Source: Vicinamibacteria bacterium
Lineage (GTDB): Bacteria > Acidobacteriota > Vicinamibacteria > Fen-336
Length of the DNA: 30,033 nt
Direction of reading: 5' to 3'
Assembly: GCA_035566715.1 (NCBI GenBank)
Contig: DATMQU010000562.1
Location: 1-30,033 of the forward strand
Positions 1 through 3,314 of the stretch are shown here, piece after piece. The position numbers and the translations under genes were made by a program. Position 1 is the first letter of the stretch; every line of letters begins with the position of its first letter. The notes beneath the pieces are model-generated. The model made no database searches, was not told where the DNA came from, and saw only the letters and a program-made list of their open reading frames with translations.

Positions 1-1
1 C

Positions 2-1066
2 AACACGTCCAACCTCAACTCAGACGGCACAACCTCAACGATCAGGAACGATTTCAGGTTCCCGGAGGAATTGAACCTCTTCGCGGCCGGAACGCTCGGC
101 GATCATCTGTCCGTGTACTCCGAGGTCACGTTCGCCGTCAACTCGGACTACTCCGTGAGCACCGAGGTCGAGCACGCCCACTTGGGGATCGACTCGCCCT
201 TCGGCCCTGAGAACCTGTTCCATTTCAGAATCGGCAGGGTGAACCCGAATATCGGCGAGTTTTTCGTGGAAACGATGAAGGAAAGCGACGCGGGGATCGA
301 GAGCATCTTCAACTACAACCCCATCGGCATCAACGGAGGCACCGCCCTCGGGGCAGACGCGGTGACACCGCAGCCAATCTCCATCCCAACGAAGGCGCCG
401 GCGTTCGAGGTCTACGGGATCGTCTCCCATCGCCTCTTCTACACCGCCGGCGTCATGGGCGGGATCTCCGCCGGCAATGGCCAGTTCGGCAACAACTCGA
501 AGGACTTCTATGCCCGTGTCGACTACAAGTTTGGGGGCATGGGATTCGATGGTGATATGGGTGGCCGGGAGGCTCCCGAGAAGAACTGGCGTGACAATTC
601 CTTCCGCATCGGGGCGTTCGCCTACCGAGGCAATGCTTCGGGCGTGAACTTCCCTACCACTGTGTCACCGGGCAACATGGTGAACATCCAGGACGATCAC
701 TTCTGGCGCGCGGGCGGTTTCGCGAGCGCCTTCATCGGAGATCTGAACGTGTTCGGAGTCTATCTGACCGGCAAGGATACGTTGCGACAATTCGACCAAA
801 CCACCGGAGCTTTCCTCTCCCAGATCGAGCCCGACTACCACGCGTTCTTCCTGGAGGCCGACTACGTCTTCTATCCGTGGCTCCACGGCGCCGCCCGTTA
901 CGAGGAGCTCACACCGGGCGATCGGACCGTGCCCAGCATCCGTACCGGAACCTTCACCGTGAGTGCCCTCGTCCGTGCCAACGTCAAGGCCATGCTGGAG
1001 TATCAGCGCGACCTGCGGGAGGCCCAAAACCACTCCCTGAATGCGATTCTGCGGATGGCTTTCTAA
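2..1066 (+). CDS. Outer-membrane beta-barrel protein, 5'-truncated by the window edge; resembles the C-terminal barrel of Cyc2-like cytochrome-porin fusions
   Basis: The frame is open from base 2 (NTSNLNSDGTTSTIRNDFRFPEELNLFAAGTLG...), so the ORF-track start at 71 is not the true start. It has amphipathic beta-strand patterns (YARVDYKF, FFLEADYVFY, VKAMLEYQ) and ends in Phe (..LRMAF*), a typical BAM beta-signal. The Cyc2 resemblance is recollection of the family; the diagnostic N-terminal CxxCH is not in the window. Confidence 0.7.
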   Translation, partial: NTSNLNSDGTTSTIRNDFRFPEELNLFAAGTLGDHLSVYSEVTFAVNSDYSVSTEVEHAHLGIDSPFGPENLFHFRIGRVNPNIGEFFVETMKESDAGIESIFNYNPIGINGGTALGADAVTPQPISIPTKAPAFEVYGIVSHRLFYTAGVMGGISAGNGQFGNNSKDFYARVDYKFGGMGFDGDMGGREAPEKNWRDNSFRIGAFAYRGNASGVNFPTTVSPGNMVNIQDDHFWRAGGFASAFIGDLNVFGVYLTGKDTLRQFDQTTGAFLSQIEPDYHAFFLEADYVFYPWLHGAARYEELTPGDRTVPSIRTGTFTVSALVRANVKAMLEYQRDLREAQNHSLNAILRMAF

Positions 1067-1075
1067 AAATGACGG

Positions 1076-1093
1076 GGGCTCGTGAGCGAGCCC
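1076..1093 (+). other. 7-bp stem-loop after the porin gene
   Basis: gggctcg-tgag-cgagccc, perfect stem, no U-tract; may stabilise the mRNA or mark a processing site. Confidence 0.45.
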
Positions 1094-1108
1094 AAAGGAG
1101 AGACCTAG

Positions 1109-1195
1109 ATGAAGGGAATCCAGCGCGTCTTCGCTCCCGCTCTGGCCGCTGTCGTTCTCCACGATCGTTCGGTTTGCCGCGTGAGGGAGATATGA
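1109..1195 (+). CDS. 28-aa small ORF with a signal-peptide-like start (probable gene relic)
   Basis: AAGGAG at 1095-1100 precedes ATG 1109. Product MKGIQRVFAPALAAVVLHDRSVCRVREI*. Its TGA overlaps the next start (ATGATG 1192-1197). It is below the ORF-track cutoff. Confidence 0.35.
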   Translation: MKGIQRVFAPALAAVVLHDRSVCRVREI

Positions 1196-1785
1196 TGAAG
1201 CGTCTTTCCAGACTTGTCCTGGCCGGAAGTATCCTAGCCTTCGCCGCAGTGCCGTTGCTGGCCGGTGACCTCCATGGGAAGGTGGAATGCAAAGGCCTCT
1301 CGGACAGCGGCAGCGCGGTCGTCTACATCGCGACGCTGCCGGCAAAGGCCTTTGCGGCACCCAAGGAGCACGCCAAGGTCGACCAAGCCAACATGAAGTT
1401 CGTGCCGCATGTTCTTCCCGTACTCATCGGAACCACCGTCGACTTCCTCAATTCCGATTCCGTCACTCACAATGTCTTCACGCCCGACGCGTGCGCGGGA
1501 AAGTTCAACCTCGGGACGTGGCCAAAAGGCCAATCAAAGTCCTATACTTTCACCAAGGAATGCTTCGCCACGCTCCTGTGCCTGGTGCATCCAGAGATGG
1601 AGGGCTTCGTCGCCGTGGTGCCGACACCCTACTTCGCCGTGACCGCGGCGGATGGCTCATATCGTATCGCCGACGTACCGGACGGGTCCTATACCGTGAA
1701 GACGTGGCATCCGAAGCTCAAAGCCACCGGGAGGACGGTGGCTGTCCAAGGTGCGACGGCGGCCGACTTCCAGCTCTCGAAGTAA
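1192..1785 (+). CDS. Exported cupredoxin (type-1 blue-copper site) with a C-terminal carboxypeptidase-regulatory-like beta domain
   Basis: GAGGGAG SD, then ATGATG (start 1192 or 1195). Signal peptide MMKRLSRLVLAGSILAFAAVPLLA. Ligand set H(NVF)...C-L-V-H-P-E-M. C-terminal DGSYRIADVPDGSYTVKTWHP. Confidence 0.85.
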   Translation: MMKRLSRLVLAGSILAFAAVPLLAGDLHGKVECKGLSDSGSAVVYIATLPAKAFAAPKEHAKVDQANMKFVPHVLPVLIGTTVDFLNSDSVTHNVFTPDACAGKFNLGTWPKGQSKSYTFTKECFATLLCLVHPEMEGFVAVVPTPYFAVTAADGSYRIADVPDGSYTVKTWHPKLKATGRTVAVQGATAADFQLSK

Positions 1786-1865
1786 TCGCAGGCGGGCAAC
1801 CGTCCGTTTCTTTCCGCCGAGGCGGCCTTCCGATCACAGGCGGCCAGGTAGAGCGAGGGTGGGCT

Positions 1866-2822
1866 ATGCCTGACGAGAAGGGTTCGGAATGGGGATCGCC
1901 GGTCCAAGGCCTCCCTGCTGTGCTCTCTTGCCTCGGTCGGTGCTTGGCTGTCTGCGTGGTGGTCACGTGCCCGACGCTCCACGCGGCCGCGGTGGGAGAG
2001 CCCAGCGCCGACGTCGACGTCACGCCCGTCGAGGGGCCGAGCTTGCTCACGCGCCTCAGGCTGTCGCGCCAGCAGTCCGCGTTGGGGAACATGGCGGCCA
2101 TTGGCGTCCGGCCCTCGTCGGATACCTCTTCGGCGTGGGGCACCTCCTCCGTTCCCGAGTCCCTGCGGCGGCCGTTCACGCTTAGCGGGGCGGACCTTTA
2201 CCGTCTCAACTGTCAGTCCTGCCACAACGTCGAGGGGATTGGCTTGCCGCCGGAGATCCGATCGCTTATCGATCCGGTCCGGGCGACGTCCCCGCTGGTC
2301 ATCAAGGAGCAGATGGCAAAGCGCGGCCTGACGCTCGACCCTGCCACCATCAAGCAGATGACCTCGCAAGCCGAGGCCTCGTTGCGCGAGCGGCTCCAGA
2401 AGGGCGGGGAGAGGATGCCCGCATTCCGGCATCTCAACGGCGCCGAGGTGGAGGCGCTGCTGGCCTATCTGCAGAGCCTAGCCGGGGTGCCGGGCGCGAA
2501 AGCGAAGCAGCGCCAGATCACGGAGCCGGTCGTCCGCGTCGGCGAGCATCTGGTAAAGGGCACCTGCTTCATCTGCCACGATGCCACGGGGCCCGGGAAA
2601 GATGCGATGCCGCAATCGCCGGACTTGGTGCCCTCGCTAGCCAGCTTCCTCGATCAAGAGCCCGTGAGCGTCGTTGTGCGCAAGGTGATCGCGGGTGCGC
2701 CCGCGCCCGGCCCGAGCATGATGGGCAAACGCGGCGATATGCCAGTCTTCTCATATCTGACTCGCGAGGAAGTGACCGCCGCCTATATCTATCTCACCGC
2801 TTATCCCCCTCGAGGGAGATAG
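1866..2822 (+). CDS. Exported diheme c-type cytochrome
   Basis: Two CxxCH motifs (CQSCH, CFICH), each followed by a class-I distal-Met motif (RMPAF, DMPVF). Hydrophobic N-terminal segment ending in AAA. The start ATG 1866 was chosen inside ORF 1287..2822, whose upstream part overlaps the cupredoxin gene. Confidence 0.85.
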   Translation: MPDEKGSEWGSPVQGLPAVLSCLGRCLAVCVVVTCPTLHAAAVGEPSADVDVTPVEGPSLLTRLRLSRQQSALGNMAAIGVRPSSDTSSAWGTSSVPESLRRPFTLSGADLYRLNCQSCHNVEGIGLPPEIRSLIDPVRATSPLVIKEQMAKRGLTLDPATIKQMTSQAEASLRERLQKGGERMPAFRHLNGAEVEALLAYLQSLAGVPGAKAKQRQITEPVVRVGEHLVKGTCFICHDATGPGKDAMPQSPDLVPSLASFLDQEPVSVVVRKVIAGAPAPGPSMMGKRGDMPVFSYLTREEVTAAYIYLTAYPPRGR

Positions 2823-2826
2823 GCCT

Positions 2827-2945
2827 TCAGAATCAGGCGGCCCGCAGTGGACCGGCGTTACGGCTGCCGCGGTGGCGAGAGCAGTCCTGCGAGTCCCGAG
2901 GTCCCGGTGGAACTCGAGCATGGCCTTGATGTTCGCCCGGACTAG
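2827..2945 (-). pseudogene. Decayed 3' end of a second porin paralogue, inverted relative to the first gene
   Basis: 2898-2945(-) encodes LVRANIKAMLEFHRDL versus LVRANVKAMLEYQRDL at 968-1015 (13/16 aa, 38/48 nt). After a frameshift it continues SRNAGPLRAA*F* versus SLNAILRMAF*. Confidence 0.75.
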
Positions 2946-3314
2946 AGGCAGAAGCTGTTGCTCAAACTGTAGTTCAGGGGTTCTCTTGCATTTCTGCCCG
3001 CCCTTGAGACCCTTCTGTTGGACGGGGAGGGACTTAGCCCGCATCTCAATGCTTGCCTGGGGGATAGCGACGCGGTCACTGGGCACAGCTTGACTGACCC
3101 CGGGGAGGCTTCCTAAGCAAGCCGCTCGGTCCGGAAGTGTTCCTCCGTAGGGTTCGGGAGTTGCTGGACGCTGGCTGAGGGCAGGCTGTGTTTCTGCATG
3201 ACGTGGACGGGCGGTGCTTTCGGGTCGCCTCGAGTGCGTCCGTGCTGGTGCCCGCGAACCCTTTGGGGGCGGCGGCGTGGCCGAGCGATTCAGGAGGGGT
3301 CTCTGAGTTGCCCG

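What the first reader, a model, noticed from the sequence alone, without database searches (positions are those of the whole stretch)
1..2822. Putative porin-cytochrome / blue-copper / diheme cytochrome electron conduit (Cyc2-rusticyanin-Cyc1-like logic)
Seen: three co-oriented exported redox or envelope genes, namely an outer-membrane beta-barrel, a cupredoxin with a complete H/C/H/M type-1 Cu site, and a diheme c cytochrome. Established: in Acidithiobacillus ferrooxidans, Fe(II) oxidation runs from Cyc2 (cytochrome-porin) to rusticyanin (cupredoxin) to Cyc1 (diheme c4). Inference: this is an analogous chain built from different parts (a two-domain cupredoxin and an atypical diheme cytochrome) in a likely Acidobacterium. 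It could mediate extracellular electron transfer or metal redox chemistry. The Cyc2 assignment depends on sequence upstream of base 1.
Basis: partly seen in the sequence, partly recalled or inferred. Interest (0 to 1): 0.8.

Follow-up and report, generated by a model that had tools for sequence, protein, structure and literature searches.

The report
Cyc2-type cytochrome-porin operon with cupredoxin
A soil Acidobacterium carries a horizontally acquired three-gene cassette (an outer-membrane pore fused to one haem, of the Cyc2 iron-oxidase family, then a blue-copper protein, then a two-haem cytochrome) that probably moves electrons between iron outside the cell and the respiratory chain; the pore family is known, but I found no paper describing its constant copper partner.

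Summary
The window starts at a contig end, so gene 1 lacks 117 codons. A 99.87 % identical metagenome contig (L004) supplies them: signal peptide, then AIPAFARKY-ATS-CQTCH-SVF-PKL. That is the consensus Keffer et al. 2021 use to define Cyc2 fused cytochrome-porins, on a 471-aa protein with a porin-like barrel. Gene 2 is an amicyanin-like type-1 copper protein (H93/C130/H133/M136 invariant) joined to a small beta-sandwich. Gene 3 is a His/Met dihaem class-I cytochrome c.

In 80 species-representative Acidobacteriota genomes the copper-protein gene directly follows the cyc2-like gene in 76. The dihaem cytochrome follows in only 17-18. In 54 the third position holds an NAD(P)-linked FeS flavoprotein plus a Rieske/cytochrome b/multihaem complex.

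Here the cassette is an insertion. It has low GC3, is missing at the same spot in same-genus and same-family genomes, and is mosaic in its gene trees.

Most likely function: an outer-membrane-to-periplasm electron conduit, probably Fe(II) oxidation. Direction and substrate are untested.

It resembles the Cyc2-rusticyanin-Cyc1 chain in logic only; parts 2 and 3 are not rusticyanin or c4 homologues.

This scan has already noted the same operon type in at least 15 other genomes.

The parts
2..1066 (+). 3' part (354 of 471 codons plus stop) of a cyc2-family gene for a fused monohaem cytochrome-porin. The missing 117 codons (signal peptide, haem domain) are at L004:2226-2576.
   Evidence: The motif AIPAFARKY..CQTCH..PKL is in P0001. 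The AF2 model is a barrel, and the Foldseek top hits are 16-strand porins at probability 1.0. hhalign to a proteobacterial protein with the canonical motif gives probability 97.9.
1192..1785 (+). Periplasmic type-1 copper protein: a signal peptide and an amicyanin-like cupredoxin (about residues 47-143) flanked by strands of a CarboxypepD_reg-like beta-sandwich (residues 24-46 and 145-195).
   Evidence: Pfam. PDB sequence search: amicyanin, residues 47-142 against 3-104 of 105, E 4e-6. Ligands H93, C130, H133 and M136 are invariant. AF2 pLDDT is 92.5. Foldseek finds amicyanin, plastocyanin and the N. maritimus cupredoxin at TM 0.72-0.77; the whole two-domain unit matches AFDB clusters at TM 0.77-0.82.
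1866..2822 (+). Dihaem class-I cytochrome c: an N-terminal hydrophobic segment (signal peptide or anchor, not resolved), a conserved linker, and two His/Met haem domains.
   Evidence: Pfam Cytochrome_CBB3 in two stretches. C116/C119/H120, C234/C237/H238, M184 and M292 are invariant in 16 homologues. The profile against PDB is best matched by dihaem QcrC subunits, E 4e-12.
2823..3314 (.). A 492-bp non-coding tail of the inserted cassette. On the minus strand (2894-2950) it holds a short remnant of a second porin C-terminus.
   Evidence: 81 % nt match to 964-1020. 13 of 16 aa match, E 2e-6. The cassette boundaries come from comparison with G278 and G059.

Best explanation
The three genes encode an electron conduit across the cell envelope. 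Gene 1 is a true member of the Cyc2 family: a 16-strand-type outer-membrane porin with one c-type haem on its N-terminal domain, which exchanges electrons with a soluble redox species at the cell surface. [quoted passage not shown] In this genome it goes on to the dihaem cytochrome c, which would hand it to membrane complexes encoded elsewhere: a haem-copper oxidase, or the Rieske/cytochrome b/octahaem complex on contig C646. The most likely substrate and direction is dissolved Fe(II) flowing inward (lithoheterotrophic or protective iron oxidation), because every biochemically tested Cyc2 is an Fe(II) oxidase and all three carriers are high-potential types. What is shown: family membership, cofactor sites, export signals, conserved linkage, and the accessory, acquired nature of the cassette. 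What is inferred: the order of carriers, the substrate and the direction.
For: Cyc2 identity:
- The motif set and the 471-aa length meet the published definition.
- The barrel is modelled, and its best matches are OmpT, OmpF, Omp32 and OprP porins at probability 1.0.
- Atlas neighbours are 'cytochrome c family' and Porin_O_P clusters.
- There is sequence homology to Ralstonia and Methylocystis proteins that carry the canonical AxPxFARQT-CxxCH-PxL (E 6e-13; hhalign probability 97.9).

Partner proteins:
- The cupredoxin gene lies 10-810 bp downstream on the same strand in 76 of 80 species-level genomes across Vicinamibacteria, Thermoanaerobaculia and Holophagae.
- The copper ligands are invariant.
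- The third position is always redox machinery: a dihaem c in 17-18, or an NAD(P)-FeS flavoprotein plus Rieske/cytochrome b/multihaem c in 54. This ties the pair to respiration rather than to transport.
- The two haem sites with Met ligands are invariant.

Rest of the genome: it holds a haem-copper oxidase subunit I and a Rieske/cytochrome b/8-haem complex.
Against: - No functional data exist for any member of this acidobacterial clade.
- I could not place the protein in the published Cyc2 clusters. One paper (PMC10654088) puts Acidobacteria homologues near Leptospirillum Cyt572, which McAllister 2020 places in Cluster 3; Keffer et al. call Cluster 3 function the most uncertain.
- Close orthologues occur in Geothrix isolates, a genus known (my own knowledge) for Fe(III) reduction, so outward flow is possible.
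- No RuBisCO was found (genome 87 % complete) and no oxidase is adjacent, so this is not an autotrophic rus-type operon.
- The third gene varies between genomes.
- The barrel model is of middling confidence (pLDDT 63.6).
- The haem domain itself is not in the window; it is inferred from a 99.87 % identical contig.
Confidence: 0.65

Rival explanations
1. The same conduit runs outward. Quinol-derived electrons leave through a Rieske/cytochrome b complex, the dihaem cytochrome and/or the cupredoxin, and the Cyc2-type porin, to an extracellular acceptor of fairly high potential such as chelated Fe(III), Mn oxides or humic quinones.
For: Close orthologues of the pair sit in cultured Geothrix terrae and G. 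oryzisoli, a genus of Fe(III) reducers (own knowledge). In 54 of 80 genomes the pair heads an operon with a quinol-oxidising Rieske/cytochrome b complex. In anammox bacteria, complexes of that type are proposed to send one electron to a favourable high-potential acceptor while reducing NAD(P)+ (PMC12954380). Nothing in the sequence fixes the direction.
Against: All tested Cyc2 proteins oxidise Fe(II). Known Fe(III)-reducing conduits use multihaem chains at lower potential. Type-1 copper and His/Met haems are typically too positive to reduce most Fe(III) minerals.
Confidence: 0.2
2. The pair serves metal handling rather than energy. Either Fe(II) is oxidised in the periplasm to feed an Fe(III) uptake system or to detoxify Fe(II)/Cu(I), with the cytochrome acting only as an electron sink.
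For: The same two-domain cupredoxin/beta-sandwich unit occurs fused to an FTR1-type 'high-affinity Fe2+/Pb2+ permease' in an AFDB cluster (L0D920, TM 0.77). This genome holds five further paralogues of the unit in other contexts. No autotrophy marker was found.
Against: No permease, siderophore, TonB or copper-resistance gene is linked to the pair in any of the 80 loci examined. The linked genes are respiratory (dihaem c, Rieske/cytochrome b, multihaem c, NAD(P) flavoprotein).
Confidence: 0.1
3. The three genes are chance neighbours: an ordinary diffusion porin beside unrelated periplasmic redox proteins.
For: No Pfam or NCBIfam model recognises gene 1. The gaps of 125 and 80 bp give no translational coupling. 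The promoter and terminator scans were at chance level.
Against: The haem motif on the porin, 76 of 80 conserved adjacency, largely congruent trees of genes 1 and 2, and joint presence or absence as one 4.1-kb cassette.
Confidence: 0.03

Closest known systems
Acidithiobacillus ferrooxidans rus-operon chain Cyc2 -> rusticyanin -> Cyc1 (c4) -> aa3 oxidase
   Same: An outer-membrane monohaem cytochrome-porin of the same family. A periplasmic type-1 copper protein and a periplasmic dihaem His/Met cytochrome are encoded with it. All are exported.
   Different: The copper protein is amicyanin-like with an added beta-sandwich, and no rusticyanin appears among the sequence or fold hits. The cytochrome is nearest to QcrC/CcoP-type dihaem subunits, not c4. 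There are no cox, cta or pet genes in the operon. The host is a neutrophilic soil heterotroph lineage. Gene order is cyc2-cup-cyt rather than cyc2-cyc1-...-rus.
Neutrophilic Cyc2 pathway (Mariprofundus ferrooxydans PV-1 Cyc2, Gallionellaceae, Chlorobium; Keffer 2021, McAllister 2020)
   Same: Family-defining N-terminal motif, single haem, porin of about 16 strands, size above 400 aa, neutral-pH habitat.
   Different: The published model passes electrons to cytochromes (Cyc1, others) and a cbb3 oxidase, with no copper carrier. Here a cupredoxin is the constant partner. The cluster (1, 2 or 3) of this protein was not determined.
Amicyanin (methylamine dehydrogenase electron acceptor, Paracoccus)
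   Same: Cupredoxin fold and a C-x2-H-x2-M ligand loop. It is the best sequence and fold match in the PDB (about 31-33 % identity).
   Different: TIGR02657 scores 25 bits against a cut-off of 110. There are no mau genes. The extra beta-sandwich domain wraps the cupredoxin. The partner is an outer-membrane cytochrome.
Anammox Rieske/cytochrome b complexes with an NAD(P) oxidoreductase (Kuste4569-4574, Kustd1480-1485; PMC12954380)
   Same: In 54 of 80 related acidobacterial loci the cyc2-cupredoxin pair is followed by the same set of parts: a GltD-like FAD/NAD(P)-FeS protein, Rieske, a b6-like cytochrome b, a subunit-IV-like protein and a cytochrome c with 7 or more haems.
   Different: It is not in this window. 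This genome has the short form with a dihaem cytochrome, and its Rieske/cytochrome b/8-haem complex (C646) has no NAD(P) module beside it.

Membership tests
Cyc2 fused cytochrome-porin family (Keffer et al. 2021) | N-terminal signal peptide | tested here: met
   P0001 residues 1-32 have a basic n-region, a hydrophobic core and ..VEA before the conserved AIP. This was judged by inspection, not by SignalP. The homologues vary here and are hydrophobic.
Cyc2 fused cytochrome-porin family (Keffer et al. 2021) | Single CXXCH close to the N-terminus | tested here: met
   CQTCH at residues 45-49 is the only CxxCH. It is at least 90 % conserved in 29 homologues. It lies outside the window and was read from L004/P0001 (99.87 % nt identity).
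Cyc2 fused cytochrome-porin family (Keffer et al. 2021) | AXPXFAR[Q/K][T/Y] just upstream of the haem motif ('unique to Cyc2') | tested here: met
   A33-I-P-A-F-A-R-K-Y41. The definition is quoted.
Cyc2 fused cytochrome-porin family (Keffer et al. 2021) | PXL four residues after CXXCH | tested here: met
   P53-K-L55, invariant in the 29-sequence alignment.
Cyc2 fused cytochrome-porin family (Keffer et al. 2021) | Length of at least 365 aa with a C-terminal porin barrel (16 strands, OprO/OprP-like) | tested here: met
   471 aa. The AF2 model is a barrel (pLDDT 63.6). Foldseek PDB hits are 16-strand porins, including OprP 2o4v, at probability 1.0 and TM 0.34-0.53. The Atlas model has pTM 0.79 with Porin_O_P neighbours. 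The strand number was not counted exactly.
Cyc2 fused cytochrome-porin family (Keffer et al. 2021) | Score above the FeGenie Cyc2 HMM cut-offs, and placement in Cluster 1, 2 or 3 of the published tree | not testable with these tools
As a substitute I showed homology to Ralstonia and Methylocystis motif-bearing proteins.
Cyc2 fused cytochrome-porin family (Keffer et al. 2021) | Fe(II) oxidase activity | not testable with these tools
   Needs biochemistry.
Rusticyanin | Type-1 Cu site (His, Cys, His, Met) | tested here: met
   H93, C130, H133 and M136 are invariant.
Rusticyanin | Sequence or fold kinship to rusticyanin | tested here: not met
   No rusticyanin appears among the PDB sequence hits at E <= 1 or in the Foldseek top 50. 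The best matches are amicyanin, plastocyanin, pseudoazurin and the N. maritimus cupredoxin.
Amicyanin (TIGR02657 equivalog) | Score above the curated cut-off | tested here: not met
   25 bits against 110.2. It passes the general Pfam Copper-bind family (26.2 against 21.2).
Cytochrome c4 (Cyc1-type) | Two class-I His/Met haem domains in one periplasmic chain | tested here: met
   Two Cytochrome_CBB3 stretches. The CxxCH pairs plus M184 and M292 are invariant.
Cytochrome c4 (Cyc1-type) | Sequence kinship to c4 cytochromes | tested here: not met
   A profile search of the PDB returns QcrC (E 4e-12), CcoP, and c552/c6 domains. No c4 entry appears at E <= 0.1.
rus-type operon | cyc2 linked to aa3 oxidase (coxBACD) genes | tested here: not met
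   The cassette is bounded by def and an htrA-like gene. The only oxidase subunit I found is on another contig.

The most novel reading that the evidence does not exclude
The cyc2-cupredoxin pair is the core of a phylum-wide, mobile acidobacterial system for exchanging electrons with extracellular iron. The beta-sandwich-wrapped blue-copper protein would be the dedicated periplasmic partner of a neutrophilic Cyc2. The pair plugs either into a dihaem cytochrome (this window) or directly into an NAD(P)-linked Rieske/cytochrome b complex (most relatives). On this reading, very abundant 'heterotrophic' soil Acidobacteriota would draw energy or reducing power from Fe(II).
Probability: 0.35. Interest if true: 0.8.

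Novelty: new variant of a known kind. Interest (0 to 1): 0.6.

Why it matters
Cyc2 is the main genetic marker used to infer microbial iron oxidation. Yet the periplasmic acceptor of neutrophilic Cyc2 proteins is poorly defined, and the meaning of the many Cyc2 hits in Acidobacteriota metagenomes is unknown.

A partner gene that follows cyc2 in 76 of 80 genomes gives a concrete, testable acceptor. Cultured Geothrix strains that carry the orthologous pair give a genetic system in which to test it.

If the pathway works, iron redox cycling would have to be added to the ecology of one of the most abundant soil phyla.

The cassette's patchy, inserted and mosaic nature also shows that the trait is exchanged between lineages.

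Tried and rejected
1. Upstream sequence in the own assembly: impossible, because the window starts at the contig end. No other contig holds the 5' part or a second Cyc2 motif.

2. Pfam and NCBIfam on the full-length protein: no family, so no curated model exists.

3. Direct comparison with A. ferrooxidans Cyc2: I tried to reach Acidithiobacillales genomes through a MAG labelled as such (L072/G301). Its order is full of close orthologues (17 of 61), so the label is wrong and the route failed. I used Ralstonia and Methylocystis motif-bearing homologues instead.

4. Cluster 1/2/3 assignment: not possible without reference sequences.

6. Rfam over the cassette and its long flanks: nothing.

7. Promoter and terminator scan: at chance level.

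8. Literature: 43 papers mention Cyc2 together with Acidobacteriota and 21 mention Cyc2 together with cupredoxin. I opened only a handful of these, and none of those describes this operon.

9. Rejected: the idea that gene 2 is a rusticyanin or gene 3 a c4 homologue.
Full report
WHAT IS IN THE SEQUENCE

The window is the first 30,033 bases of contig C562 of a fragmented MAG (789 contigs, 87 % complete). Base 1 is an assembly end, not a biological boundary. Three genes lie on the + strand.

- 2..1066: the last 354 codons of a barrel protein.
- 1192..1785: 197 aa.
- 1866..2822: 318 aa.

Pfam recognises the second gene as a plastocyanin/azurin-type copper protein (26.2 bits, cut-off 21.2) followed by a CarboxypepD_reg-like piece. 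It recognises the third as two class-I cytochrome c domains. It recognises nothing in the first. NCBIfam adds only weak amicyanin, QcrC and CcoP similarities.

THE MISSING N-TERMINUS

A search of 5.8 billion proteins found 769 relatives of gene 1. None carries a Pfam domain, and all are annotated as hypothetical. One of them is a 471-aa protein (P0001) identical over the whole window part.

P0001 is encoded on several metagenome contigs with the same neighbours as in the window. One of these, L004, is 99.87 % identical to the window over 11,066 bp without gaps. It therefore comes from the same population, and it supplies the lost 117 codons.

After a signal peptide, P0001 reads A-I-P-A-F-A-R-K-Y, three residues, C-Q-T-C-H, three residues, P-K-L. 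Keffer et al. 2021 (PMC8406198) define the Cyc2 family by five features:

- a signal peptide;
- a single CXXCH;
- an AXPXFAR[Q/K][T/Y] motif just upstream, which they call unique to Cyc2;
- PXL four residues downstream;
- a length of at least 365 aa with a 16-strand porin resembling OprO/OprP.

The motif residues are invariant or at least 90 % conserved in 29 homologues of 59-86 % identity.

An AlphaFold2 model (pLDDT 63.6, pTM 0.63) is a beta-barrel from about residue 109 onward. Its Foldseek hits in the PDB are 16-strand porins (OmpT, Omp38, OmpF, Omp32, OprP 2o4v), at probability 1.0 and TM 0.34-0.53. The ESM Atlas holds a model with pTM 0.79 whose neighbours are 'cytochrome c family protein' and Porin_O_P clusters.

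I could not fetch the experimentally studied Cyc2 sequences. As a substitute, tblastn against plasmids found a 451-aa ORF on a Ralstonia syzygii megaplasmid and a 552-aa Methylocystis protein. Both carry the canonical A-x-P-x-F-A-R-Q-T ... CxxCH ... P-E-L. Pairwise, P0001 against the Ralstonia ORF gives E 6e-13. The profile comparison with the Methylocystis protein gives probability 97.9 over 162 columns. Keffer et al. name Ralstonia among the genera with Cyc2 homologues.

I therefore file gene 1 as a member of the Cyc2 family. Its cluster (1, 2 or 3) is undetermined. One paper places Acidobacteria homologues near Leptospirillum Cyt572, the Cluster 3 representative in McAllister 2020 and the functionally least certain cluster.

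THE COPPER PROTEIN

Residues 47-142 align with all of amicyanin (3-104 of 105, E 4e-6), and the ligand loop is C-x2-H-x2-M. In 31 homologues of 41-72 % identity, H93, C130, H133 and M136 never change.

The AlphaFold2 model is confident (pLDDT 92.5). Its cupredoxin part matches amicyanin, plastocyanin, pseudoazurin and a Nitrosopumilus cupredoxin at TM 0.72-0.77. No rusticyanin appears in the top 50.

The whole chain from about residue 24 to 196 matches two-domain AFDB clusters at TM 0.77-0.82. These are annotated 'methylamine utilization protein' or 'rhamnogalacturonan lyase domain-containing protein'. The same unit is also found fused to an FTR1-type iron permease and to a cytochrome c protein.

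Two strands (24-33, 43-46) precede the cupredoxin. The C-terminal piece covers only profile positions 28-81 of CarboxypepD_reg. From this I infer that the cupredoxin is inserted into the small sandwich. I did not inspect coordinates.

THE CYTOCHROME

Sixteen homologues (39-47 % identity) keep both CxxCH motifs, M184 in GGxxMP and M292 in RGxMP. That is the pattern of His/Met class-I haems. The N-terminus is hydrophobic and variable, so it could be a signal peptide or an anchor. A family profile searched against the PDB is best matched by the dihaem QcrC subunits of actinobacterial bc1 complexes (E 4e-12), then by CcoP. No c4 cytochrome is returned.

LINKAGE

A scan of one genome per GTDB species returned 80 loci. 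All lie in Acidobacteriota lineages: Vicinamibacteria, Thermoanaerobaculia, and Holophagae including the isolates Geothrix terrae SG184 and G. oryzisoli SG189. A few carry evidently wrong NCBI labels.

- The cupredoxin gene lies on the same strand, 10-810 bp after the cyc2-like gene, in 76 of the 80 loci.
- Three of the other four loci end within 700 bp; one (L021) has 1.5 kb of sequence and no cupredoxin gene.
- The third gene is the window-type dihaem cytochrome in 17, plus one more where it lies further downstream.
- In 54 loci the third position holds a 610-640-aa GltD-like FAD/NAD(P) protein with several FeS clusters. It is followed by Rieske, a b6-like cytochrome b, a subunit-IV-like protein and a cytochrome c with at least seven haems.

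That set of parts is the one described for the anammox complexes Kuste4569-4574 and Kustd1480-1485, which are proposed to reduce NAD(P)+ (PMC12954380).

So the conserved core is the pair, and the third position is always respiratory machinery.

Across 301 Acidobacteriota genomes, 83 have some match at E <= 1e-10. Most of these match only the haem domain of other 380-500-aa ORFs, that is, other Cyc2-like groups. Close orthologues occur in only seven besides this genome.

THE CASSETTE IS ACQUIRED

- Composition: the three genes have GC 0.60, 0.60 and 0.67 and GC3 0.76-0.82. Their neighbours have GC3 0.86-0.93, and the genome GC is 0.684.
- Same-genus comparison: in genome G278 the flanks are collinear at 89 % nt identity. 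The 4,115 bp holding the cassette are replaced by 1,292 bp with an unrelated 272-aa ORF.
- Same-family comparison: in genome G059 def and the htrA-like gene are about 14 bp apart.
- Gene trees (FastTree): the trees of the Cyc2-type protein and the cupredoxin share the deep split between a Vicinamibacteria-type and a Thermoanaerobaculia/Holophagae-type clade. The window and its two nearest relatives (L005, L007) fall in the first clade for Cyc2 (99 % local support) and in the second for the cupredoxin (99 %). The operon is therefore mosaic.
- Remnant: a 57-nt remnant of a second porin C-terminus lies inverted in the 492-bp tail.

REST OF THE GENOME

There is one haem-copper oxidase subunit I (cut by a contig end), one Rieske/cytochrome b/8-haem cytochrome cluster without an NAD(P) module, and no RuBisCO large subunit. 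There are five further paralogues of the cupredoxin-sandwich protein. The organism looks like an aerobic heterotroph that could use the conduit as a supplement.

MECHANISM AND RIVALS

The best reading is inward electron flow from dissolved Fe(II): Cyc2-type porin, then cupredoxin, then dihaem cytochrome, then oxidase or Rieske/cytochrome b complex. It rests on family membership, high-potential cofactor types and respiratory linkage.

- Outward flow to Fe(III), Mn or humics cannot be excluded. The Geothrix orthologues and the quinol-oxidising partner complex favour it.
- A metal-handling role is hinted at by the FTR1 fusions elsewhere, but no linked gene here supports it.
- Chance adjacency is excluded.

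NOVELTY

Cyc2 hits in Acidobacteriota are routinely reported by FeGenie-based surveys. For example, four of six cyc2-bearing MAGs were Acidobacteriota in PMC10367259. I found no paper describing the cupredoxin partner or the two operon forms, among a limited set actually read.

Earlier agents of this scan reached the same reading on at least 15 other genomes. I read those notes after my own tests, and they agree.

I rate this a new variant of a known kind.

Noticed in passing
window 2894-2950 (minus strand), within the 492-bp gap 2823-3314: An inverted 57-nt stretch is 81 % identical to 964-1020. It translates to 13 of 16 residues of the porin's C-terminal strands (E 2e-6). It is probably a remnant of a second, oppositely oriented cyc2-like gene. 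A same-class relative (G009) has such a divergent paralogue next to its orthologue.
   Followed up: partly
L058:7462-13401, L027:7353-13329, L011, L052, L054 and 49 further loci: In 54 of 80 related genomes the cyc2-cupredoxin pair heads a longer operon. It holds a GltD-like FAD/NAD(P)-FeS protein, Rieske, a b6-like cytochrome b, a subunit-IV-like protein and a cytochrome c with at least 7 haems. This is the same part list as the anammox NAD(P)-linked Rieske/cytochrome b complexes.
   Followed up: partly
Trees of L005-L084 plus the window: The window, L005 and L007 group with Vicinamibacteria-type sequences for the Cyc2-type protein. For the cupredoxin they group with Thermoanaerobaculia/Holophagae-type sequences (99 % local support each). 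This points to recombination inside the operon. The dihaem and the NAD(P)-Rieske forms are scattered over both clades, so they have switched several times.
   Followed up: partly
G278:C37 (L101:6893-8184) and G059:C48 (L102:6725-6740): The spot between def and the htrA-like gene is variable. It holds the 4.1-kb cassette here, an unrelated 272-aa barrel-like ORF in the same-genus genome, and nothing in a same-family genome.
   Followed up: yes
Own genome contigs C608, C460, C477, C137, C730: There are five more paralogues (30-44 % identity) of the cupredoxin/beta-sandwich protein. The one on C137 lies next to an ORF that looks like haem A synthase (CtaA/COX15); I judged this by eye from the ORF's N-terminal residues and ran no Pfam or homology check. 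The one on C477 follows a monohaem ORF.
   Followed up: no
Own genome C646:8442-13937 (minus strand): A Rieske, split cytochrome b and a 970-aa cytochrome c with eight CxxCH form one cluster. It has no NAD(P) flavoprotein gene and no cyc2 or cupredoxin nearby. It is a possible downstream partner of the cassette.
   Followed up: partly
L012/L082 (JBLMXQ01, 'Betaproteobacteria'), L072 (JBLMYG01, 'Acidithiobacillales'), L047 ('Tepidisphaerales'): These NCBI organism labels look wrong. The contigs carry the acidobacterial operon, and the GTDB order of L072's genome has close orthologues in 17 of 61 genomes.
   Followed up: partly
L098:2375-5894 (Methylocystis sp. MJC1 plasmid): A 552-aa Cyc2-motif protein annotated as hypothetical is followed by three c-type cytochrome genes on a 354-kb plasmid of a peat-bog methanotroph.
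   Followed up: no
L004:1471-2225 (upstream of the cyc2-like start; outside the window): A 755-bp non-coding leader precedes the cassette. It has no Rfam match and no promoter-like site above chance.
   Followed up: partly
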